Assembly: GCF_988243305.1 (NCBI RefSeq)
Contig: NZ_OZ547136.1
DNA: 64,000 bases
Strand: one strand, 5' to 3'
The notes under the pieces are model-generated. The model made no database searches and had not been told where the DNA came from. It was given only the letters and a program-made list of their open reading frames with translations. Positions 28,089 through 56,357 of the stretch are shown here, in pieces. Made by a program: the position numbers and the translations under genes. How positions within the stretch are numbered: position 1 is the first letter of the stretch; each line of letters begins with the position of its first letter.

Positions 28089-30533
28089 TTACGCGGCTTC
28101 AACTTTCCGCACTTTCTCCGGCAACTTTACCGGCTTCGTCGCCAGCTCTTCCGGATCAAAGTCATCAACGTTAATACTGCGCAGACGGCTTTCTTCAGCT
28201 TTCACCAGAATAGCGGCTTCATCTTTATCAATCAGCCCCTTCGCCAGCGCGTTATGCGCCAGTTCATCCAGACGGGTAAACGGCAGGTTTTTACCCAGCT
28301 CTTTACAGATCCGCTGATGAATTGGGTCGGCGGCAATCACATCCACCAGCGCCTCTTCCAGTAAGCCAACCGGGTTATGCTCGCTCGGCGTCAGGTACTG
28401 ACCGCGACCAATACGTGAACGGGTGGCGTTCGGCACTTGTAAAATCTTCGCCACCTTATGATCCAGCTTGTCAGAAGGTGCCAGATAATGACGTCCGGTC
28501 GGGAAGATCACCACATTCAGCAGCCCGGCAACCACGCGGTTCGGGAAGTTTTGCAGTAAATCATCCATCGCCTGTTCAGCCTGATACAGCGCATCCTGTA
28601 CGCCCCAGTGCACCAGCGGCAGGTCGGCTTCATTACGGCCTTCGTCGTCATAACGCTTCAGAACGGCAGAGGCGAGGTAAAGCTGGCTTAAAATATCCCC
28701 CAGACGTGCCGAGATACGCTCACGACGTTTCAGGCTGCCGCCCAGCACAGCCATCGAGACATCAGAAAGCAGGGCGAGGTTGGCGCTCAGGCGGTTCAGG
28801 TGCTGATAGTAGCGTTTAGTGGCATCGCCGGTTGGCGTGCTGCTGGTTAAACCGCGCGTCAGGCCCAGCCAGAAGCTGCGAACTTTGTTGCTACCGACGT
28901 GACCGATATGTTTAAACAGGAGTTTATCGAACGCGTTGACGTCATTGTTCTTCGCCGCTTCCATCTCTTCCAGCACGTACGGATGGCAACGAATCGCTCC
29001 TTGTCCGAAGATCATCATGCTGCGGGTCAGAATGTTAGCCCCTTCAACGGTGATGGCAATCGGCGCGCCCTGGTAAGCACGCGCCAGGAAGTTGCTCTGC
29101 CCGAGCATAATGCCTTTGCCACCAGTGATATCCATCGCATCAATAATCGACTGCTGCCCGCGGTGGGTACAGTGATACTTAACGATAGCCGACAGCACGG
29201 CAGGTTTTTCACCGAGCATAATGCCGTAGGTAATCAGCGATGCCGCAGCATCCATTACATAAGCGTTTCCGGCAATACGCGCCAGCGGCTCTTCAATCCC
29301 TTCCATCTTACCAATAGAGATTTTGAACTGACGGCGGATGTGCGCATACGCACCCGTTGCCAGCGCTACCGATTTCACGCCGCCGGTTGAGTTGGAAGGC
29401 AGGGTGATACCGCGGCCTACCGAGAGGCACTCCACCAGCATCCGCCAGCCTTGCCCGGCCATTTTTGGTCCGCCGATAATGTAATCGATCGGTACGAAGA
29501 CATCTTTACCGCGCGTCGGTCCGTTCTGGAACGGCACGTTCAGCGGGAAGTGGCGACGACCAATTTCCACGCCCGGCGTGGTAGTCGGGATCAGCGCACA
29601 GGTAATACCTAAATCTTCTGCACCGCCGAGTAATTTCTCCGGGTCGGAGAGTTTAAACGCCAGCCCAAGCACGGTCGCAATCGGTGCGAGCGTAATGTAA
29701 CGTTTGTTCCAGGTCAGACGCATCCCCAGCACCTGCTGGCCCTGCCATTCCCCCATGCAGACAATCCCGGTGTCCGGAATCGCGCCCGCATCGGAACCCG
29801 CTTCCGGGCTGGTCAGTGCAAAGCAAGGGATTTCCTGACCACGCGCCAGACGCGGCAGATAGTGATCTTTCTGCTCGTCAGTGCCGTAATGTTGCAGTAG
29901 CTCACCCGGGCCTAATGAGTTTGGCACGCCGACGGTAATCGCCAGGATCCCGCTCACGCCGGAGAGTTTTTGCAGCACGCGAGACTGGGCATAAGCCGAG
30001 AACTCCAGCCCGCCGTACTCTTTTTTGATGATCATCGCGAAGAAACGATGCTCTTTAAGGTACGCCCACAACTCCGGCGGCAAATCAGCCAGCTCATGAG
30101 TAATCTGGAAATCATTCGCCATCCGGCAGGCTTCTTCTACCGGGCCGTCGAGAAACGCTTGCTCTTCTGCGGTCAGGCGCGGCTGCGGATAGTTATGCAG
30201 CTTTTTCCAGTCCGGCTTGCCCTGGAACAAGTCGCCCTCCCACCATGTGGTGCCTGCGTCGATCGCTTCTTTCTCAGTGCGCGACATCGGCGGCATCACC
30301 TTACGGAAGCCGCGAAATACCGGCGCGGAAATCATCGACTTACGCATAGGCGCAAAGTTAAATGGCACGAGGATAATGGCCAGAGGCACCAGTACCCACG
30401 CCGACCACAGACCAGCAACGCCGAGGGCGGCTGTCCAGGCGAGCAAAATCAGACTGCTGATAAATAAGCTCACGCGGTGATAGAACAACGCGCCGAGCAG
30501 GACAACCGTAGCGAGAATACTCAAAATCATCAT
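28089..30533 (-). CDS. fadE: Acyl-CoA dehydrogenase FadE
   Basis: ORF track 28089..30611 (840 aa); start at internal ATG 30533 ([11 protein letters not shown]...) gives the 814 aa expected for FadE. Confidence 0.9.
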
Positions 30534-47665: not shown

Positions 47666-47830
47666 TTACACATAATTAGTACCTTCCTTTTTTTTTGACT
47701 GGGACAAATTTGGGACCGATGGGTTCAGGACTGAGTCTATTTGCCGTGCGTGTTCGGTAAGGTGATTAGGCGCGAGGTGAGCATATCGACGAACCATTTC
47801 GATAGACTCCCAGCCTCCCATTTCTGAAAA
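47666..47830 (-). pseudogene. 3'-terminal remnant of a tyrosine-recombinase (phage/island integrase) gene
   Basis: Only about 55 C-terminal codons with integrase-like ...[28 protein letters not shown]...; stop is 14 nt from the thrW 3' end; upstream boundary approximate. Confidence 0.65.
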
Positions 47831-47836
47831 TGCAAG

Positions 47837-48388
47837 TTGGATGTCACAGACCGACAGTCCATGGCAGATTTCGTGCAAGCAGCGCTGGATAGCTGGGGGC
47901 GAGTTGATGTTCTTATCAATAATGCGGGCGTTATGCCGCTTTCACCGCTTGCAGCAGGAAAACAAGATGAATGGGAACTCACTATTGACGTGAATATCAA
48001 AGGCGTACTTTGGGGAATTGGCGCTGTACTTCCGGTGATGGAAGCACAGGGTTCCGGTCAGATAATCAATCTTGGTTCTATTGGTGCCCTTTCTGTTGTG
48101 CCCACAGGCGCAGTCTATTGTGCATCAAAATTTGCAGTACGGGCTATTTCGGATGGCTTACGGCAGGAAAGCTCGAAAATCCGTGTGACCTGCGTAAATC
48201 CTGGGGTTGTAGAAAGTGAACTGGCTTCAACCATTACCCATGTGGAAACCATGAAGTCAATGGACGCCTACCGTTCTGTTGCACTTCAACCCGCGGATAT
48301 TGCCCGTGCTGTAAGGCATATTATTGAGTCTCCCGAAAGCGTTGATACAACCGAAATTACCATCAGACCTACTGCATCTGCAAACTGA
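47837..48388 (+). pseudogene. 5'-truncated short-chain dehydrogenase/reductase (SDR) gene
   Basis: Homology starts within the SDR fold (...DVLINNAGV...; catalytic YCASK) but the N-terminal Rossmann TGxxxGIG segment is absent; overlaps the integrase remnant at a probable deletion junction. Confidence 0.6.
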
Positions 48389-48603
48389 AGAATAACTTTT
48401 ATATTCACGTTTTATTAAATAGGTCGGAAGGAAAATTTATATCCACTGTTTTGAATAGCAAGATGCATTATATTATGCATTGCTCACTCCGAAGGAGATG
48501 AAGGTTTAATTACAGTAAGATTATTTTCACAGGGAGTAAACATGACTCATATTTAATGCCTTTGTATATAAAACTCATCCTCTCAATTGTCAGGAGAATT
48601 AGC

Positions 48604-48834
48604 GTGAATACTATCTGTTCTTTAATTGTTGTTGTTACACTGTCTTTATTATCATTCAGTAGCGTCGCCAAAACGATTACTGCCGTCGGTTCAACCATCG
48701 ACAGCACTGAAAAAGAAATTTCTTTACAGGCAGCAAAACAAGGAAAATCATATAAAATTCTGGGCGCGTTTTTTAAGAACAGAGTTTATATGATAGCAAA
48801 GTTAATACCAGTCAGTAAAAATGATGCTTCGTAA
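48604..48834 (+). CDS. Small exported protein, DUF1471 (YdgH/BhsA/McbA)-like
   Basis: GTG at 48604 with AGGAGA 6 nt upstream; signal-peptide-like N-terminus followed by ...ITAVGSTIDSTEKEISLQAAKQGKSYKILGA...; about 76 aa; family call tentative. Confidence 0.45.
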   Translation: MNTICSLIVVVTLSLLSFSSVAKTITAVGSTIDSTEKEISLQAAKQGKSYKILGAFFKNRVYMIAKLIPVSKNDAS

Positions 48835-49535
48835 GGCTCATGGTCTAATTTTTAAGACATGATCAAGAAGCATGTCTATTGATTCAAAATTGTCATTATT
48901 ATGGCAATGGAATGCCCGACAAATGACGCTATACCATCCTTCTGTACCAGTCGTCCTGCTAATCCCACCGATGCTTCGGTCTGGAGTGGTAAATTAATAT
49001 TGGACACAGTTTTATTTTCTCTCTTTTTCGAGGGGGGGATATCAACAGGAAGAATACATCCCTAAGCGGTTAATGCTGGCGTAATCAATAGACCAACATT
49101 AATCACGGATGATTACCAATCAGACTGAAATGGTTAAATCGTCGAATTCATATTTAATACGTTTTCTTTCGCCGCTGAACAACTTGAAAAGGATACATAT
49201 TTTAAATATCAGTGAAGTGAACAGTTTATTGCCATTATTAATAGAGATGGAGGAATAAATACGCGTATTCGACTATTGCAACAAAAACAACGATGATGAT
49301 CAGTTTTCATAATGAAGTAACCTGACAGATATAAAAATGTTGATTGAGGCTAAATGCCCGGATGAAGGTTGTCGAGGGAGCCAGGTGGTTTTTTCTTTTG
49401 GGTGATCTCCATTGCTGGATAGTCCCCTTGTACAGATAAGCCTGCTCTTTCTCGCTCAAAGCAGACCCTGGAATTGAACGCAGAGGGACTACCTGACACA
49501 ATTTTGCACAGTGAAGAGTCGGTCGTTATTAACGT

Positions 49536-50420
49536 TCAGATTTTCAATGTATCAATGACCATCCGCAGGGCGGGGGAGACGTTGCGATGAGGGTAATAGA
49601 GAAACAATCCCTCCATTCGCAGGCTGTAACGCTGCAACACCCTGATAAGCTTACCGTGTTCTAAATCATCCGCGACCAGTTCAACAGGAACATAGGCCAA
49701 TCCGAGGCCCAGCCGGGCGGCTTCTGCTTCCATATAGCTGTCGGATAGGGCCCATTGCCCTTCAGGGCGATGAGTGATTTTTTTATCATCCTGATTGAGT
49801 TCCCACTGGTATACGCTGCCGTCGGCAAACTGATAGGCGATACAGGGATGCGCCTTTAAATCCGCCGGGGTTTGCGGAAAACCATAGCGACGAAAATGTT
49901 CCGGAGTCCCCACAATTGCCATCTCCATATCGGGCGTGATGCGTACCGCGACCATACCCTGGCCGACTTCAGGCCCCAGGCGGACACCTGCATCGAATCT
50001 TTCCTCGATGATATCGACGAACCGGCTCTCATTTATCAGTTCAAGCCGGATATCAGGATATCTCTGTTTAAATACCGCCAGCTTTGGCAGCAGGCATTTA
50101 TCAATCGCGTGCTGGCTGGCATTGATACGCACCGTGCCGGAGGGCGTCTCTCGATAGTGCGCCAGCGTGGCAAGCCCAAGATCTAACATTTCAAATCCAG
50201 ATGCCGTCTTCTGGTAGAGCTGCTCGCCTGCTTGTGTCAGCGACAGTTTACGCGTGGTGCGCACTAGCAGCTGGACGCCCAGCCTTTCTTCAAGCTCGCG
50301 AACAGAACGGCTGACTCCTGACTGAGCAAGACCCAGCCGCTGAGCCGCTGCGGTAAAGCTGCCTTCCCGCACCACCTGCATAAACAGGTACAGCTCGTTG
50401 TAGTTCTCCCTTTTCGCCAT
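49536..50420 (-). CDS. LysR-family transcriptional regulator
   Basis: 294 aa; N-terminal helix-turn-helix FTAAAQRLGLAQSGVSRSVRELEERLGVQLL; divergent from the hydrolase gene. Confidence 0.8.
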   Translation of the reverse strand: MAKRENYNELYLFMQVVREGSFTAAAQRLGLAQSGVSRSVRELEERLGVQLLVRTTRKLSLTQAGEQLYQKTASGFEMLDLGLATLAHYRETPSGTVRINASQHAIDKCLLPKLAVFKQRYPDIRLELINESRFVDIIEERFDAGVRLGPEVGQGMVAVRITPDMEMAIVGTPEHFRRYGFPQTPADLKAHPCIAYQFADGSVYQWELNQDDKKITHRPEGQWALSDSYMEAEAARLGLGLAYVPVELVADDLEHGKLIRVLQRYSLRMEGLFLYYPHRNVSPALRMVIDTLKI

Positions 50421-50606
50421 TGAAACATCCCCCCTTCATGCCGGCAATCTCCGCATTAATTTATAACAATATGGTATTAATCTTAGCATTAATCGCCCCC
50501 TAATCAGCACTAATTCTGCTCACTATAATGACCCCATCAAAGTAAAGCACCGCAGCGTTGTCCGTCGGAAACCTGTATCTCTCTGTTGTTTTTTATGGGG
50601 ATTTTT

Positions 50607-51743
50607 ATGAAAGCCTTCACCCGCACGCTAAAAACCGCGATGCCGACCATGCTGCTTTTCGCATCATTAAGTGGAGTCACGACAATGAGTTATGCTGATT
50701 CAACCAATCCTAATGCCCCTGTGTCCATGACAGATAAATGGGATAAAACGTTCGCCGAGAGCCAGAAAGTCGATCACCGTAAAGTCTCGTTCCCGAACCG
50801 ATATGGCATCACCTTAGTGGGCGATCTTTACCTGCCTAAAGACCGTGGCGATCGCAAGCTGGCGGCGATTGCGGTCAGTGGGCCATTTGGCGCGGTGAAA
50901 GAGCAATCCAGCGGCTTGTATGCGCAGACGCTGGCGGAACGAGGGTTTGTTACCCTGGCGTTCGATCCTTCTTACACCGGGGAAAGCGGCGGCTATCCGC
51001 GAAACGTCGCCTCACCGGATATCAACACTGAAGATTTCAGCGCGGCGGTGGATTTCTTAGGGCTGCAAAAAGAGGTAGATCGCAACCGTATCGGGCTGCT
51101 CGGTATTTGTGGCTGGGGCGGCATGGCGCTGAACGACGTGGCGATGGATACCCGCGTTAAAGCGGTAGCTACCAGCGTGATGTATGACATGAGCCGGGCG
51201 ATGGGTCATGGTGTGGGGGATGGCAAAGACCGTTATTCTACCGCCGACCGTCGTGCCGTTCTGCAATATCTGAATGAACAGCGCTGGCAGGATGCGCAGA
51301 GCGGAACGTTCGCTCACGGTGGTCATGATATTAATGTCGATAGCAACGGCAAGGTCAGTGCGGGCGAGCGCATTCTGCCAGAAACGCTGCCGGCAAATCC
51401 TCATCCGGTACTGAAAGAGTTCTTTGACTACTATCGCATGCCGCGCGGCTTCCACGAACGTTCCGTTAACTCTACCGGGGCGTGGACGGCAACGATGCCG
51501 CTGTCATTTATGAATATGCCGCTGTTGAGCTACGCCAGTGAAATCACCATTCCGACGCTGATTGTGACCGGTGAGAAAGCACATTCACGCTATTTTGCTG
51601 AAGATGCTTACAAGGCGGTTGGCAGTAAAGACAAAGAGTTGGTGGTGGTACCAGGGGCAAATCACGTGGACCTGTACGATAACGTGGCCGGAAAAATACC
51701 TTTCGCGAAGTTCGAACAATTTTTCCAGACCAAACTGAAATAA
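50607..51743 (+). CDS. Secreted alpha/beta hydrolase (dienelactone-hydrolase-like)
   Basis: ORF track 50586..51743; start at ATG 50607 (MKAFTRTLK...) preceded by GGGGA; signal peptide; nucleophile-elbow-like GICGWGG. Confidence 0.65.
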   Translation: MKAFTRTLKTAMPTMLLFASLSGVTTMSYADSTNPNAPVSMTDKWDKTFAESQKVDHRKVSFPNRYGITLVGDLYLPKDRGDRKLAAIAVSGPFGAVKEQSSGLYAQTLAERGFVTLAFDPSYTGESGGYPRNVASPDINTEDFSAAVDFLGLQKEVDRNRIGLLGICGWGGMALNDVAMDTRVKAVATSVMYDMSRAMGHGVGDGKDRYSTADRRAVLQYLNEQRWQDAQSGTFAHGGHDINVDSNGKVSAGERILPETLPANPHPVLKEFFDYYRMPRGFHERSVNSTGAWTATMPLSFMNMPLLSYASEITIPTLIVTGEKAHSRYFAEDAYKAVGSKDKELVVVPGANHVDLYDNVAGKIPFAKFEQFFQTKLK

Positions 51744-51818
51744 AACCTCTCCTGAATTGATGCAAAGCCACCGGCCATAGGCTGGTGGCTTTTATCCTGA
51801 TCTTTGTGAAATTTCACT

Positions 51819-53012
51819 ATGTCGACACTAAGCCAAACACTATCACCTCATCATCAGCGCGCATACTGGGGCGGTATTTTTGCCATGACCCTGTGCGTGT
51901 TTGTGCTGATTGCTTCTGAATTTATGCCCGTCAGCCTGCTCACGCCGATTACCCGCGATTTAGGCGTGACGGAGGGGCTTGCAGGGCAGGGGATTGCTAT
52001 CTCCGGCGCGCTGGCGGTTCTGACCAGCCTGACGCTTTCAACGCTAGCTGGAAAGATGAATCGTAAGTTCCTGCTGCTGGGGATGACGGTTCTGATGGCC
52101 GTATCGGGGCTTATTATTGCGCTGGCTTCCAGTTATCTGATGTATATGGTCGGTCGTGCGATGATTGGTGTGGCTATTGGCGGATTCTGGTCGATGTCAG
52201 CGGCAACGGCGATTCGTCTGGTGCCGCAGCATCAGGTCACGCGTGCGCTGGCAATTTTCAACGCCGGTAATGCGCTGGCGACGGTCGTGGCCGCACCGCT
52301 GGGAAGCTATCTGGGGGCTACGGTCGGATGGCGAGGCGCTTTCTTGTGCCTGGTGCCCATCGCGGTTGTCGCCTTTATCTGGCAGTGCATCAGCCTGCCA
52401 AGCATGGATGCGAATAAAAGCCACACTTCATGTGGCGCGGTATTCCGCTTATTTAGCCGCCGCATGGTTGTGGTCGGCATGATAGCTTGTGGCCTGTTTT
52501 TCATGGGGCAGTTTGCGCTATTCACCTATGTGCGCCCGTTTCTGGAGTCGGTGACACGGGTTAATTCCTTAGGCTTGTCGTCGATTTTGCTGATTATCGG
52601 CGTGGCCGGTTTTATTGGCACGCTGGTTGTTTCGGCATTTCTCAACAGAAAATTCTACCCCACGCTGATGGCCATACCCGGACTGATGGCCGTCATTGCC
52701 ATCGGTCTGATGCTTACCGGGCATCACGTCTGGACGGTCTCGCTGCTGTTAGGACTCTGGGGCATGCTGGCCACCGCCGCGCCAACCGGATGGTGGACAT
52801 GGATTGCGCGTACGTTGCCTGACAACGCCGAAGCTGGAGGCGGGCTCATGGTCGCGGTGATTCAGCTCGCCATCGCCCTTGGATCAACGGCAGGAGGCAT
52901 TGTGTTTGACCGCCTTGGCTGGCAGAGCACGTTTGCTATGAGTAGCGTGCTGCTCCTTTGCGCTGGCGTACTGACCTTTGTTACCGCACGCCAGAAGGCC
53001 GGTGCGCTTTAG
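51819..53012 (+). CDS. MFS-family transporter
   Basis: 397 aa; about 12 predicted hydrophobic helices. Confidence 0.75.
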   Translation: MSTLSQTLSPHHQRAYWGGIFAMTLCVFVLIASEFMPVSLLTPITRDLGVTEGLAGQGIAISGALAVLTSLTLSTLAGKMNRKFLLLGMTVLMAVSGLIIALASSYLMYMVGRAMIGVAIGGFWSMSAATAIRLVPQHQVTRALAIFNAGNALATVVAAPLGSYLGATVGWRGAFLCLVPIAVVAFIWQCISLPSMDANKSHTSCGAVFRLFSRRMVVVGMIACGLFFMGQFALFTYVRPFLESVTRVNSLGLSSILLIIGVAGFIGTLVVSAFLNRKFYPTLMAIPGLMAVIAIGLMLTGHHVWTVSLLLGLWGMLATAAPTGWWTWIARTLPDNAEAGGGLMVAVIQLAIALGSTAGGIVFDRLGWQSTFAMSSVLLLCAGVLTFVTARQKAGAL

Positions 53013-53055
53013 TCCGGCGAGGGCGCGCGTTGCTGAATAAGTTACACAAGGCGAT

Positions 53056-53088
53056 GAGCGCCCACTATGGGTTGGGCGCTCTTTTAAA
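53056..53088 (+). terminator. Rho-independent terminator after the MFS transporter gene
   Basis: 9-bp stem GAGCGCCCA / TGGGCGCTC with 8-nt loop, followed by TTTTAAA. Confidence 0.55.
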
Positions 53089-53192
53089 CGATTTAGGTGA
53101 TTTTCTAAAACGGCTACTGCAGATTTTTTCTCTTAATTTATGGGTATTTCCCCCGGAGGCGAGAAAGCGCTCTCCACGCCCGGCCGCAAGGA

Positions 53193-54149
53193 TCAGGACG
53201 ACGGGGGCAGGCATGAATCCTCATCCTGATGGAGACGTACAGAGGCGACTTCTGCCAGCACGGAGAGTGCCAGAGTATGCGCATCCCGGGCTTTGGGGAA
53301 TATCCCGACGGGTGCCCGGATTTGCGCTGTCTCCTCCCTGGACCATCCCAGCTCGTGGAGCTTTTGCAGACGTAAAGTGTGGGTTCGATAGCTGCCCAAT
53401 GCGCCGAGATAAAAGGGTTTTGCTTCTCGCGCGGCCTGCAACACTGGCAGCTCCCGGTTGAGATCATGGCACAGCAAAATGACCGCCGTATCGGTATCGA
53501 TCTGAGCGCTGGCTGAGGCCGGAAAAAGATCGAAGATATGGCTGTCATAGCCTGTGGCTGCTGCAAGACTCGCGGTTGCCTGCGCTTCAAGAGAACGTCC
53601 GTAAATCATCAGCCTGACGCATGGCCTGAACCCCACCTCAAAGCCATTGAGATTCCAGCCCGTCCGGGTTTGCGTGGGCAGGCACACCAGCGATTGAGCT
53701 TGCGGATCGTAGCGCAGACCCGCCGGTTTTCTCTGTTCCAGGCGGTTCAGCACGGCGAGCAGAGGCTGTGCCGAGCGTAGTTTATGGAGCGTCAGCGTGA
53801 TCCCACCGCCGCAGGGCAGAACGATGTCAAACCACGGCGAACCTTCGCCATAGCGAATTTCGCGATCGCGGTCTGAGCCCATCATCTCCAGCGCTTCAAA
53901 AGCGGCAGCGGCCTCCACGCAGCCGCCAGAGACAAAACCGCAATAACGACCATCTTCGCGCACCACCATCTGTGCCCCGAGCGGGCGCGCCGCGCCGCCG
54001 CGTATTTCCACCAGCGTCACCAGCACCGCTCCTTTACCGGACATTAGCGCCTCTACGGCGAAGCGCAGAATGGTCCGGTGGTCATCGGTGAGAAACGCCT
54101 GCTCTGGCTTATGCCAGTGCTCGTCTTTGTCAAAAAGCGAGTATGACAT
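53193..54149 (-). CDS. paoD: Molybdenum cofactor insertion chaperone PaoD (XdhC family)
   Basis: 318 aa; matches YagQ/PaoD as recalled. Confidence 0.85.
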   Translation of the reverse strand: MSYSLFDKDEHWHKPEQAFLTDDHRTILRFAVEALMSGKGAVLVTLVEIRGGAARPLGAQMVVREDGRYCGFVSGGCVEAAAAFEALEMMGSDRDREIRYGEGSPWFDIVLPCGGGITLTLHKLRSAQPLLAVLNRLEQRKPAGLRYDPQAQSLVCLPTQTRTGWNLNGFEVGFRPCVRLMIYGRSLEAQATASLAAATGYDSHIFDLFPASASAQIDTDTAVILLCHDLNRELPVLQAAREAKPFYLGALGSYRTHTLRLQKLHELGWSREETAQIRAPVGIFPKARDAHTLALSVLAEVASVRLHQDEDSCLPPSS

Positions 54150-54158
54150 TGTTCCTCC

Positions 54159-56357
54159 TTAAACCACATCCGGCAGTTTATCGAGCAGCTTATCCAGAGT
54201 GATGGGATAATCCCGTACCCGAATACCGGTGGCGTTATACACCGCGTTGGCGATAGCCGCGCTCACGCCGCACAGGCCCAGCTCACCGACACCTTTGGCC
54301 TTCATCGGGGAGGATATGGGGTCGGTATCATCCAGGAAAATCACCTCCTGTTTTGGGATATCCGCATGGACCGGCACCTCATACCCCGCCATATCGTGAT
54401 TAACGAAGTAGCCCAAACGGTCATCTACCGCCAGCTCCTCCATCAGTGCCGCGCCCATGCCCATAGTCATCGCGCCAATGACCTGGCTGCGTGCAGTTTT
54501 CGGATTCAGGATGCGTCCTGCAGCACACACAGCGAGCATACGCCGGACCCGAACTTCTCCCGTCGCGCTATGCACGCCGACCTCCACAAAATGCCCGGCA
54601 AAGGTCGATTGCTGGTACTCCTTGCTCAGTGTTCCGAATTCAATGCTCTCTTCCGCTGTCAGTCTGCCGCCTGCGGTGGCCTCATGTAGCATGGCGCTTC
54701 GGGTACCGTTGGTAATCTTGCCGTCGGCAAACTGCGACTGCTCAGGATCAAACCCGACTGCCGAGGCAATCATTTCGCGAAGCTTCACACAGGCGGCGTA
54801 AACGCCGGAGGTGGAGGTATTCGCGCCCCATTGTCCACCAGAACCCGCAGAAACCGGGAAACTGGAATCGCCGAGGTGAACCGCAACCTGCTCCAGCGGT
54901 ACGCCAAGCATTTCCGCTGCCGTCTGGGCCAGAATGGTGTAGCTGCCAGTGCCAATATCGGTCATGTCCGTTTCCACGGTAACGGTGCCGTTTTGTTCTA
55001 GGTGAACCCGCGCACCCGATTTTTCCAGCAGATTATTGCGAAAGCCCGCCGCAACACCGTGGCCGACTAGCCACTCCCCGTCGCGTACCTGTCCGGGTGT
55101 GGCGTTGCGCAGCTTCCAGCCAAATTTATCCGCTCCGGTGCGCAAGCACTCGATAAGCTGACGGCGAGAGAAGCGGCGCGTCGGGTCGGCGGGGTCAACC
55201 TGAGTGTCATTCAGGATGCGAAACTCGACGGGATCGATGCCCGCTTTTTCCGCCAGTTCGTCGATCGCGATTTCGAGCGCCATCAGACCGGGGGCTTCGC
55301 CGGGCGCACGCATGGCGTTCCCTTCCGGCAAATCAAGCGTGGCGAGCCGCAGGCCGGTATGACGATTCGCCCCTGCGTAAAGAAATTCGCTTTGCTGTAC
55401 CGCCGTTTCCGGCGTGCCGCCGGGCAGGTTTCCGGACCAGCTTTCATGTGAGATAGCGGTGATTTTCCCGCTCTGGTCGGCACCGATACGCAGGTGCTGA
55501 AGGGTGGCGGGGCGGTGCGTGGTGTTATTGGGAATAGTGGGGCGGGGGAGCATCACTTTAACCGGACGTTTCACCGCACGGGCGGCGAGGGCCGCCAGCA
55601 GCGCATCGCTTCTCAGGAACAGCTTGCCGCCAAACCCTCCACCGATATACGGGGAGATAATACGCACATTCTCCACGGGCACTTTCAGCGTTTTTGCCAG
55701 ATCGGTGCGGCACCAGTCAATCATCTGATTTGAGGTCCAGAGGGTAAGCTTATTTCCATCCCAGACGGCCATCGAGGCATGCGGCTCCATCGCCATATGG
55801 CTCTGGTCCGGGGTCGTGTAGGTAGCATCAATCTTCACCGCAGCGGAGGTGAAAGCCCCGTCAAAGTCACCAACATTTTTATCGGGCGTGTCTTCCGGCG
55901 GCTGACTGACGGCCTGTTTCTCGTCCGCCAGGGAGTAAGCTCCTTTATTACGGCGATAGTGCGCCTGCACCAGCGAGGCCGCCGCTCGCGCCTGTTCGAA
56001 GGTCTCGGCCACTACCAGCGCAATGGCCTGATGATAGTGCTCAATAGTGGGGCCGGCTAACAGCCTGGCGGTGTTTTTGTCGCCTTTGCCGAGTGCCCCA
56101 GCGTTACTGGCGGTAATGACAGCCAGTACGCCCGGCGCTTTTTGCGCGGCGTCCGTATCAAGGGCGGTGAGGCGTCCTTTGGCAATGGCAGAACTGACGA
56201 TATAACCATAGGCGGCGTTGGGGGCTTCTTCATGCCATTCGTAGGCGTAGCGTGCCGTGCCGGTAGTTTTCAGCGGTCCGTCGATGCGGTCATGGGGACG
56301 ACCGACAACCTTCAGCTGATCGATCGGGTTTTCCCCTGCGGGTTTATCAAATTTCAT
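54159..56357 (-). CDS. paoC: Periplasmic aldehyde oxidoreductase molybdopterin subunit PaoC
   Basis: 732 aa; xanthine-dehydrogenase-family molybdopterin subunit. Confidence 0.9.

What the first reader, a model, noticed from the sequence alone, without database searches (positions are those of the whole stretch)
50455..50493. Three ATTAAT hexamers in the LysR/hydrolase divergent region
ATTAAT occurs at 50455-50460, 50476-50481 and 50488-50493, starting 35 bp upstream of the LysR start codon and between the two divergent genes. The outer two motifs fit T-N11-A-like spacing expected for LysR-type regulator recognition and auto-regulatory sites.
Basis: seen in the sequence. Interest (0 to 1): 0.3.

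Follow-up and report, generated by a model that had tools for sequence, protein, structure and literature searches.

The report
OvrB regulator's operator, one conserved hexamer
The three ATTAAT copies lie in the control region between the E. coli virulence-regulator gene ovrB and a neighbouring hydrolase gene, but comparison with about 50 related bacteria shows that only the middle copy is conserved, as one arm of an ordinary-looking LysR-type binding site.

Summary
ATTAAT occurs at 50455, 50476 and 50488 in the 186-bp region between a LysR gene (49536-50420, minus strand) and a divergent hydrolase-MFS pair. The LysR protein is 98% identical to O157 Z0346/ECs_0309, the published LEE1 activator OvrB. 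No paper I found describes its DNA motif or tests its own intergenic region.

Footprinting across 53 distinct orthologous intergenic regions changes the interpretation:
- Hexamer 2 is nearly invariant (within one mismatch in 53/53).
- Hexamer 1 is exact in 5/53.
- Hexamer 3 is exact only in the E. coli sequence.
- The outer two hexamers start 33 bp apart, so they are not T-N11-A.

What is conserved is an indel-free block, 50459-50529. It holds three dyads:
- ATTTATA-N9-TATTAAT, centre 50470; it contains T50464-N11-A50476, and hexamer 2 is its right arm.
- TTAG-N13-CTAA, centre 50493.
- AGCA-N7-TGCT, centre 50513.

An invariant TATAAT follows at 50524-50529. From the predicted start site, the dyads lie at -66, -43 and -23, the classical LysR RBS/ABS layout. 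Dyad 1 also covers a putative extended -10 for ovrB, which suggests autorepression.

Binding, start sites and the inducer are inferred, not shown. This is an ordinary operator of a known kind, newly delineated for OvrB. The LEE1 promoter has no match to it.

The parts
49536..50420 (-). LysR-family regulator gene, ortholog of O157 Z0346/ECs_0309 (OvrB)
   Evidence: Pfam HTH_1 plus LysR_substrate. 289/294 identical to Sakai ECs_0309. Same OI-9 gene order as in PMC6768210. The MAKRENYN start is conserved in about 50 species.
50607..51743 (+). Divergent alpha/beta-hydrolase gene (Z0347 homolog), with a signal-peptide-like N-terminus; the presumed regulated target
   Evidence: Weak Pfam alpha/beta-hydrolase hits. 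tblastn aligns from residue 1 of the ATG-50607 product in 50 species. RefSeq starts the gene at 50685.
51819..53012 (+). MFS transporter gene (Z0348 homolog), downstream of the hydrolase on the same strand; probably the same operon
   Evidence: Pfam MFS_1. Nearest NCBIfam model is NepI, below its cutoff. Syntenic in most orthologous loci.
50455..50460 (.). ATTAAT hexamer 1: lineage-specific; only its last two bases (A50459, T50460) belong to the conserved block
   Evidence: Exact in 5/53 orthologous regions. Column identity to the window is 13-21/53 for the first four bases.
50476..50481 (.). ATTAAT hexamer 2: conserved; the right arm of dyad 1
   Evidence: Five of six bases are kept in at least 52/53; the third base varies (T in 34/53). 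Within one mismatch in 53/53.
50488..50493 (.). ATTAAT hexamer 3: specific to the E. coli sequence, in the variable linker inside dyad 2
   Evidence: Exact in 1/53. Closest relatives have AGTAAT. Linker 50489-50495 has mean identity 0.51. Also present in O157.
50459..50481 (.). Dyad 1, ATTTATA-N9-TATTAAT, containing T50464-N11-A50476; candidate high-affinity recognition site (RBS), centre 50470, about -66 from the predicted hydrolase start site
   Evidence: 0.80 of arm cells are complementary over 53 sequences, the best of 704 arm-7 geometries. z=3.7 against the same geometry elsewhere; slid arms fall to 0.16-0.38. Block identity 0.90 against 0.44 at synonymous sites.
50483..50503 (.). Dyad 2, TTAG-N13-CTAA, centre 50493 (about -43); candidate activation subsite. 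Includes the invariant TAGCA and CTAAT
   Evidence: 0.86 complementary, z=3.7. TAGCA 50484-50488 is kept in 52-53/53 and CTAAT 50500-50504 in 53/53.
50506..50520 (.). Dyad 3, AGCA-N7-TGCT, centre 50513 (about -23), in the spacer of the hydrolase promoter; candidate second activation/repression subsite
   Evidence: 0.93 complementary, z=3.7; slid arms fall to 0.01-0.66.
50524..50529 (+). Predicted -10 hexamer TATAAT of the hydrolase promoter; predicted start site at A50536. The -35 position (TAATCA, 50501-50506) is a poor match
   Evidence: TATAAT is kept in 48-53/53 per base. The consensus scan reports no full sigma-70 promoter because the -35 is weak. The start site is inferred, not mapped.
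50460..50468 (-). Putative extended -10 (TGTTATAAA on the minus strand) of the ovrB promoter, inside the left half of dyad 1
   Evidence: Read from the sequence. Columns 50460-50468 are kept in 45-53/53. Promoter function is inferred.

Best explanation
The hexamers sit in the divergent control region of the ovrB (Z0346-type LysR) gene and the hydrolase-MFS pair.

The functional unit is not the ATTAAT word. It is a roughly 70-bp conserved, indel-free block (50459-50529) built like a classical LysR-type operator:
- A high-affinity T-N11-A dyad, ATTTATA-N9-TATTAAT, at about -66. Hexamer 2 is its right arm.
- Two further dyads at about -43 and -23.
- A perfect -10 preceded by a poor -35.

Inferred mechanism:
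- An OvrB tetramer holds dyad 1 constantly. This occludes the extended -10 of its own promoter on the other strand, giving negative autoregulation.
- Its second DNA-binding pair contacts the -23 site without inducer and the -43 site with an unknown inducer. That shift would allow RNA polymerase to use the weak -35 promoter of the hydrolase-transporter genes.

Hexamers 1 and 3 are recent, lineage-specific sequence with no evidence of constraint.

Shown here: sequence, conservation, symmetry, fixed spacing, and the identity of the regulator. Inferred: binding by OvrB, both start sites, the direction of regulation, and the inducer-driven shift.
For: - Regulator identity: LysR domains; 98% identical to Sakai ECs_0309 in OI-9; OvrB is Z0346 (PMC6768210).
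- The LysR-hydrolase(-MFS) cassette is syntenic in about 50 Enterobacterales species. It sits in 43 different neighbour contexts, so the operator travels with this regulator.
- Conservation: block A 0.90 and block B 0.86 identity to the window. This compares with 0.44 at four-fold synonymous sites of lysR and 0.24 in the lysR-proximal part of the intergenic region. There are no gaps in columns 50450-50541.
- Three symmetry centres at 50470, 50493 and 50513, each about 3.7 sd above the same geometry elsewhere, and collapsing when an arm is slid.
- T50464-N11-A50476 is kept in 46/53.
- Positions -66, -43 and -23 from the predicted start site match the published layout. The RBS with T-N11-A lies near -65 and the ABS near -35 (PMC5603801). 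There are two ABS subsites with an effector-driven shift (PMC11739112). IR1 is at -65 and IR2 at -43 for GcvA, and the extended motif is CTATA-n9-TATAG (PMC5002191).
- No other site in the 64-kb window scores above 8.7 bits for dyad 1, against 37.1 for the site itself.
Against: - No binding, footprint or start-site data exist for this region. The searched literature tested only LEE promoters.
- The start site is predicted from an invariant TATAAT alone, and the consensus promoter scan found no complete promoter. The -66/-43/-23 positions could be off by a few bases, or wrong.
- The arms of the three dyads differ in sequence (ATTTATA/TATTAAT, TTAG/CTAA, AGCA/TGCT). One regulator usually recognises related half-sites, so dyads 2 and 3 could belong to another protein.
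- An overlapping alternative dyad, TGGTA-N7-TAGCA (centre 50480), scores 0.79.
- Part of the conservation can be explained by core promoter elements of two back-to-back promoters.
- The only experimentally known OvrB target, the LEE1 promoter, has no match to any of these matrices.
- The 53 sequences are phylogenetically related, so the counts are not independent.
Confidence: 0.62

Rival explanations
1. One reading: the ATTAAT hexamers themselves are the recognition units of the LysR protein. Three copies would form the regulatory and autoregulatory sites, with the outer pair in T-N11-A-like register.
For: The cluster is improbable for this word (P=0.0012). All three copies are retained in O157 strains. 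In the window and its closest clade, TAAT cores at 50457, 50478, 50490, 50501 and 50511 are in helical phase. GcvA, a related LysR protein, recognises CTAAT / ATTA-n7-TAAT (PMC5002191).
Against: Hexamers 1 and 3 are exact in 5/53 and 1/53 orthologs, although the regulator is 80-98% identical. The hexamer pairs are poor dyads (0.41-0.56). The outer pair starts 33 bp apart, and no pair gives T-N11-A. ATTAAT is not enriched in the LEE1 promoter that OvrB binds: 1 in 500 bp against 0.8 expected.
Confidence: 0.08
2. The conserved block reflects the core elements of two back-to-back promoters, and/or the site of a different protein (a global regulator or nucleoid protein), rather than OvrB. The hexamers would then be incidental AT-rich promoter sequence.
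For: The invariant TATAAT, the TGTTATAAA on the other strand, and TAGCA/CTAATCA at -35-like distances could all be promoter elements. The dyad arms are heterogeneous. The island is horizontally acquired, and ATAAATT-like sequence around 50459-50466 resembles H-NS nucleation sequence (this resemblance is from my own knowledge and was not tested). The LEE1 promoter lacks the motif although OvrB binds it.
Against: Conservation extends through both promoter spacers (50470-50482 and 50507-50523), which are normally free to vary. The spacing is rigid and indel-free over about 90 bp. The block co-occurs with this LysR gene in 43 different genomic contexts and many genera, which favours the co-travelling regulator. 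Geometry at -66/-43/-23 fits a LysR tetramer.
Confidence: 0.2
3. Hexamers 1 and 3 are functional gains specific to the E. coli/Citrobacter/Kluyvera clade. They would be extra TAAT-core contacts, phased with the conserved ones, that alter OvrB occupancy or recruit another factor.
For: The five phased TAAT cores are retained, in whole or in large part, in the closest clade (L002-L005, L071). The exact 7-mer ATTAATC is duplicated 12 bp apart (50476-50482 and 50488-50494).
Against: That clade is 95-98% identical in the regulator, so shared ancestry explains the retention. Hexamer 3 differs even within the clade (AGTAAT, AATTAT, AGTTAT). Neither extra hexamer forms a dyad with the geometry of dyad 1.
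Confidence: 0.1

Closest known systems
Classical LysR-type (LTTR) divergent promoter with RBS and ABS sites (for example GcvA at gcvA-gcvB, OccR at occR-occQ, BenM, CatR)
   Same: Regulator gene transcribed divergently from its target. An interrupted T-N11-A dyad near -65 that matches the core of the extended motif CTATA-n9-TATAG (here TTATA-n9-TATTA). Further dyads near -43 and -23, about two helical turns apart. A weak -35. The regulator's own promoter overlaps the high-affinity site (PMC5603801, PMC5002191, PMC11739112).
   Different: Nothing here has been shown by binding or start-site mapping. The three dyads have dissimilar arms. The conserved arms of dyad 1 are unusually long (7 bp, 23 bp overall).
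GcvA binding sites (CTAAT motif; ATTA-n7-TAAT / ATTAG-n5-CTAAT inverted repeats)
   Same: An invariant CTAAT (50500-50504) and TAAT-core arms. The regulator belongs to the same broad LysR subgroup: GcvA is among the top NCBIfam hits, well below its cutoff.
   Different: No ATTA-n7-TAAT or ATTAG-n5-CTAAT repeat is present; hexamers 2 and 3 give ATTA-N10-TAAT. The protein is not GcvA (125.6 bits against a cutoff of 288).
OvrB (Z0346) acting at the LEE1 promoter of EHEC O157:H7
   Same: Same protein family member (98% identity) and same island, OI-9.
   Different: The published target is LEE1, shown by EMSA at 0.1-2 uM and by ChIP-qPCR, with no motif defined. The LEE1 regulatory region has no match to the conserved operator found here: best score -5.6 bits against 37.1. 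This E. coli window is not shown to carry LEE, and most cassette-bearing species are not known LEE carriers.

Membership tests
LTTR-regulated divergent promoter (RBS/ABS operator) | Adjacent regulator has an N-terminal LysR HTH and a LysR substrate-binding domain | tested here: met
   PF00126 E=1.4e-23 and PF03466 E=4.7e-35
LTTR-regulated divergent promoter (RBS/ABS operator) | Target gene transcribed divergently from the regulator gene | tested here: met
   LysR on the minus strand ends at 50420 and the hydrolase on the plus strand starts at 50607. The arrangement is kept in about 50 species.
LTTR-regulated divergent promoter (RBS/ABS operator) | Interrupted dyad containing T-N11-A | tested here: met
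   T50464-N11-A50476 lies within ATTTATA-N9-TATTAAT; kept in 46/53, arms 0.80 complementary. This is not met by any pair of the ATTAAT hexamers (0.41-0.56).
LTTR-regulated divergent promoter (RBS/ABS operator) | High-affinity site centred near -65 of the activated promoter, with an activation site near -35 | tested here: inconclusive
   Centres fall at -66, -43 and -23 only if the start site is A50536, predicted from the invariant TATAAT 50524-50529. No start site has been mapped, and the consensus scan found no complete promoter.
LTTR-regulated divergent promoter (RBS/ABS operator) | The regulator binds and protects the region, and an inducer changes the footprint | not testable with these tools
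   Needs EMSA or DNase I footprinting. The searched literature reports only LEE promoter EMSAs.
LTTR-regulated divergent promoter (RBS/ABS operator) | Negative autoregulation of the regulator gene | not testable with these tools
   Only the overlap of dyad 1 with a putative extended -10, TGTTATAAA (50468-50460, minus strand), is seen.
GcvA-type sites | Inverted repeat ATTA-n7-TAAT / ATTAG-n5-CTAAT | tested here: not met
   Not present in 50421-50606. Hexamers 2 and 3 give ATTA-N10-TAAT, and TAATC recurs as direct repeats rather than inverted ones.
GcvA-type sites | Regulator is GcvA | tested here: not met
   NF008352 scores 125.6 bits against a cutoff of 288. The best model, YafC, scores 192 against 470.
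OvrB (Z0346) of O island 9 | Orthology to O157 Z0346/ECs_0309 by sequence and synteny | tested here: met
   289/294 identical. The window is collinear with Sakai OI-9 at 97% from 47835 to 54500. Gene order matches PMC6768210.

The most novel reading that the evidence does not exclude
The conserved 70-bp block is the ancestral, cognate OvrB operator, controlling a mobile hydrolase-exporter cassette found across Enterobacterales. The published LEE1 activation in EHEC would then be a secondary, low-specificity or indirect interaction, because LEE1 has no such site. In addition, the extra phased ATTAAT(C) copies in the E. coli lineage (hexamers 1 and 3) would have rewired OvrB occupancy, for example through higher basal occupancy or altered autorepression, which helps this lineage's OvrB reach non-cognate AT-rich targets such as LEE1.
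Probability: 0.12. Interest if true: 0.45.

Novelty: new member of a known kind. Interest (0 to 1): 0.3.

Why it matters
OvrB is a published activator of the LEE virulence island in EHEC O157:H7. Even so, its DNA motif, its inducer and its local regulon are undescribed in the literature I could search.

The comparative footprint gives a precise, testable operator (50459-50523, with T50464/A50476 as key bases). It points to the adjacent secreted hydrolase and MFS transporter as the ancestral regulated genes. It also shows that the LEE1 promoter lacks this site, so it is unclear how OvrB reaches LEE1.

For the scan itself, the lesson is methodological. A striking repeated word was two-thirds lineage-specific noise around one truly conserved half-site.

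Tried and rejected
- Consensus promoter/terminator scan of 50300-50750: nothing passed the thresholds. The promoters are therefore inferred from conserved -10 elements only.
- Rfam scan of 50380-50700 at E<=1: no hit.
- Folding of the conserved hydrolase leader: no structure signal, with z=+0.66 and only a 4-bp consensus stem. I dropped a riboswitch or attenuator reading.
- Weight-matrix scan of the Sakai LEE locus for five operator matrices: no credible match upstream of ler. An ATTTAT-N8-ATTAAT at L083 30346-30368 has the wrong spacing, and I treated it as chance in 66-69% AT DNA.
- ATTAAT enrichment in the LEE1 promoter: none.
- GcvA-type ATTA-n7-TAAT repeats: absent.
- Curated family naming of the three proteins: none reaches a cutoff. 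The nearest models are YafC, a UilS lactonase fragment, and NepI, so no inducer could be inferred.
- Allele counting of the hexamers in E. coli by BLAST identity bands was too coarse. It shows only that 330 of 913 records are identical over 50445-50505, and that the O157 group differs by one base outside the hexamers.
- My first leader-extraction regex failed and was redone from alignment columns.

Full report
OBSERVATION

ATTAAT occurs at 50455-50460, 50476-50481 and 50488-50493. All three copies lie in the 186-bp region between two genes. One is a LysR-family gene on the minus strand (49536-50420). The other is a divergent alpha/beta-hydrolase gene on the plus strand, followed by an MFS transporter gene. 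The first hexamer begins 35 bp upstream of the LysR start codon, as stated.

The window contains 33 ATTAAT against 17.8 expected. This is by far the tightest triple in the window (33 bp between the first and third start positions; the next tightest triple spans 244 bp). In dinucleotide shuffles of the intergenic region, three or more ATTAAT arise with P=0.0012. Any hexamer occurring three times arises with P=0.13.

The spacing claim fails. The outer hexamers start 33 bp apart. Hexamers 2 and 3 are direct copies 12 bp apart. No pair gives a T opposite an A at +12.

WHAT THE LOCUS IS

The segment is an E. coli accessory region present in about 17% of complete genomes (941 of 5426). It lies between the thrW-side island and paoD. 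It is collinear with O island 9 of O157:H7 Sakai at 97% identity, from window 47835 to at least 54500, the end of the segment compared. The LysR protein is 289/294 identical to ECs_0309.

In Sakai, OI-9 contains, in order: yagP (LysR), an oxidoreductase, hypothetical genes, ECs_0309, ECs_0310 (the hydrolase homolog, annotated as hypothetical in Sakai) and ECs_0311 (the MFS transporter homolog). Its coordinates match those the literature gives for EDL933 OI-9, z0342-z0348.

Z0346 was named OvrB. By EMSA and ChIP-qPCR it binds the LEE1 promoter and activates ler (PMC6768210). That paper reports no motif, no footprint, and no autoregulation or own-promoter test. A 2024 review states that other roles of OvrB remain unclear (PMC10877973). 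Deleting z0347 or z0348 had no virulence phenotype.

PHYLOGENETIC FOOTPRINT

A scan of one genome per species returned about 52 loci with an OvrB ortholog at 80-98% identity. In all of these that are complete, the same hydrolase is divergent from the regulator, and usually the MFS gene follows. The DNA beyond the regulator differs almost everywhere, with 43 neighbour-gene families. One copy lies on a Pantoea plasmid. The three-gene cassette is therefore mobile and carries its control region with it.

I aligned the 53 distinct intergenic regions. The part next to the LysR start is unalignable (mean identity to the window 0.24). Four-fold synonymous sites in lysR match the window at 0.44. By contrast, the rest of the region behaves as follows:
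- 50459-50488 matches at 0.90.
- 50496-50529 matches at 0.86.
- The linker between them, 50489-50495, matches at only 0.51.
- No indel occurs anywhere between columns 50450 and 50541.

The three hexamers fare differently:
- Hexamer 2 keeps five of six bases in at least 52/53. It is exact in 33/53 and within one mismatch in 53/53.
- Hexamer 1 is exact in 5/53. Only its last two bases belong to the conserved block.
- Hexamer 3 is exact only in the E. coli sequence. It sits in the variable linker and differs by one base from the AGTAAT of the closest relatives.
- O157 strains keep all three. A 73%-identity E. coli variant of the cassette keeps only hexamer 2 and the core.

ANATOMY OF THE CONSERVED BLOCK

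I ran a symmetry scan over all centres and arm/gap geometries, scored on all 53 sequences. It finds three centres:
- 50470: ATTTATA-N9-TATTAAT, 50459-50481. 0.80 of arm cells are complementary, the best of 704 arm-7 geometries.
- 50493: TTAG-N13-CTAA, 0.86.
- 50513: AGCA-N7-TGCT, 0.93.

Each is about 3.7 sd above the same geometry at other positions. Each collapses when one arm is slid by 1-3 bp.

Dyad 1 contains T50464-N11-A50476, kept in 46/53. Its core, TTATA-n9-TATTA, resembles the extended LysR motif CTATA-n9-TATAG (PMC5002191). Hexamer 2 is its right arm. The partner arm is the degenerate ATTTAT at 50459, which is within one mismatch of ATTAAT in 36/53.

An invariant TATAAT lies at 50524-50529. 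The -35 position reads TAATCA, a poor match, which is why the consensus scan reported no promoter. If transcription starts at the conserved CA at 50535-50536, the three centres lie at -66, -43 and -23.

This is the published LysR layout:
- The RBS with T-N11-A lies near -65 and the ABS near -35 (PMC5603801).
- There are two ABS subsites, between which the tetramer shifts on effector binding (PMC11739112).
- For GcvA, IR1 is at -65 and IR2 at -43 (PMC5002191).

On the other strand, 50468-50460 reads TGTTATAAA, an extended -10. It lies inside the left half of dyad 1, so occupancy of dyad 1 would repress ovrB. Hexamer 1 would then fall between that -10 and the ovrB start site, a position with no sequence constraint in the orthologs.

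MECHANISM

Most likely, OvrB binds dyad 1 as its recognition site and autorepresses. It contacts the -23 and -43 sites to repress or activate the weak -35 promoter of the hydrolase-transporter genes, in response to an unknown inducer.

Shown here:
- the sequence, its conservation, its symmetry and its rigid spacing;
- the co-travelling regulator;
- the identity of that regulator.

Inferred:
- binding by OvrB;
- both start sites;
- the direction of regulation;
- the inducer-driven shift.

Weak points:
- The dyad arms are heterogeneous, so dyads 2 and 3 might serve another protein.
- An overlapping dyad centred at 50480 scores 0.79.
- Some of the conservation may be due to core promoter elements.
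- The start site is only predicted.

TEST AGAINST THE KNOWN OvrB TARGET

I fetched the Sakai LEE locus. I scanned it with weight matrices built from the 53 operators. The best dyad-1 score within 700 bp upstream of ler is -5.6 bits, against 37.1 for the window site. No other matrix does better. ATTAAT is not enriched there either: 1 in 500 bp, with 0.8 expected.

So neither the hexamer model nor the conserved operator explains the published LEE1 binding. The site found here looks like the cognate one. Nothing else in the 64-kb window scores above 8.7 bits for dyad 1.

COMPARISON AND NOVELTY

The region works like a classical LysR divergent operator and meets the features that can be tested by sequence: regulator domains, divergent target, and a T-N11-A dyad. 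The position criterion rests on a predicted start site. Binding cannot be tested here.

It is not a GcvA-type site. It has an invariant CTAAT, but no ATTA-n7-TAAT repeat, and the protein is far below the GcvA and YafC model cutoffs.

This is a new member of a known kind: an apparently undescribed operator for a named regulator, of ordinary design.

VERDICT

The type of region is right, but the elements and the spacing are wrong.
- Interest is modest. The most useful products are a precise testable OvrB box and the finding that LEE1 lacks it.

Noticed in passing
window 50541-50580: A sequence block in the predicted hydrolase leader (AAAGCACmGCAGCGTTGTCCGT..GAAACCTGTA) is conserved in 39 of 53 orthologs and deleted in the Enterobacter group with short intergenic regions. 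It has no Rfam hit and no RNA-structure signal (z=+0.66; 4-bp consensus stem). Its function is unexplained; it may be a further protein site, since it contains another AGCAC.
   Followed up: partly
window 50607-50687: RefSeq starts the hydrolase at ATG 50685. Orthologs in 50 species align from the ATG at 50607, which adds a signal-peptide-like N-terminus (MKAFTRTLKTAMPTMLLFASLSGVTTMSYA). The annotated start probably removes the export signal.
   Followed up: partly
window 47666-47878 and 47835: OI-9 is truncated in this strain. Collinearity with Sakai begins at 47835, inside the oxidoreductase (Z0343 homolog, 183-aa remnant). The second LysR gene, yagP/Z0342, is missing. A weak integrase C-terminal remnant abuts the junction.
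   Followed up: partly
L084 9400-9430 (Sakai); window 50421-50439: O157 ovrB is annotated as 300 aa rather than 294. A 1-nt shorter C-run puts an upstream ATG in frame. The extra six residues lie in non-conserved sequence, so the longer start is probably an annotation artefact.
   Followed up: partly
L083 30284-31596 (Sakai ler upstream region): The LEE1 regulatory region, the only published OvrB target, has no match to any conserved OvrB-operator matrix. Only an ATTTAT-N8-ATTAAT at 30346-30368 occurs, with the wrong spacing. How OvrB recognises LEE1 is unexplained.
   Followed up: yes
L081 (E. coli Br_112_kylling): A different LysR gene is joined to the right half of the operator (from about window 50503 onward), and the hydrolase is a pseudogene. 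This looks like a recombination or deletion junction inside the control region.
   Followed up: no
L082 (E. coli O170:H18): A second version of the cassette, about 73% identical, exists in a few dozen E. coli genomes, and some genomes carry two copies. In it, dyad 3 is a near-perfect palindrome, TAGCACTATTAATGCTA, which itself contains an ATTAAT.
   Followed up: no
window 50457-50514: TAAT cores at 50457, 50478, 50490, 50501 and 50511 are spaced 21, 12, 11 and 10 bp apart, which keeps them in helical phase. All or most of them are retained in the closest clade (L002-L005, L071). Only those at 50478 and 50501 are conserved family-wide.
   Followed up: partly
whole window: ATTAAT is about twice as frequent as expected across the 64-kb window (33 against 17.8; none of 100 shuffles reached 33). 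This generally raises the chance of local clusters in AT-rich intergenic DNA.
   Followed up: no
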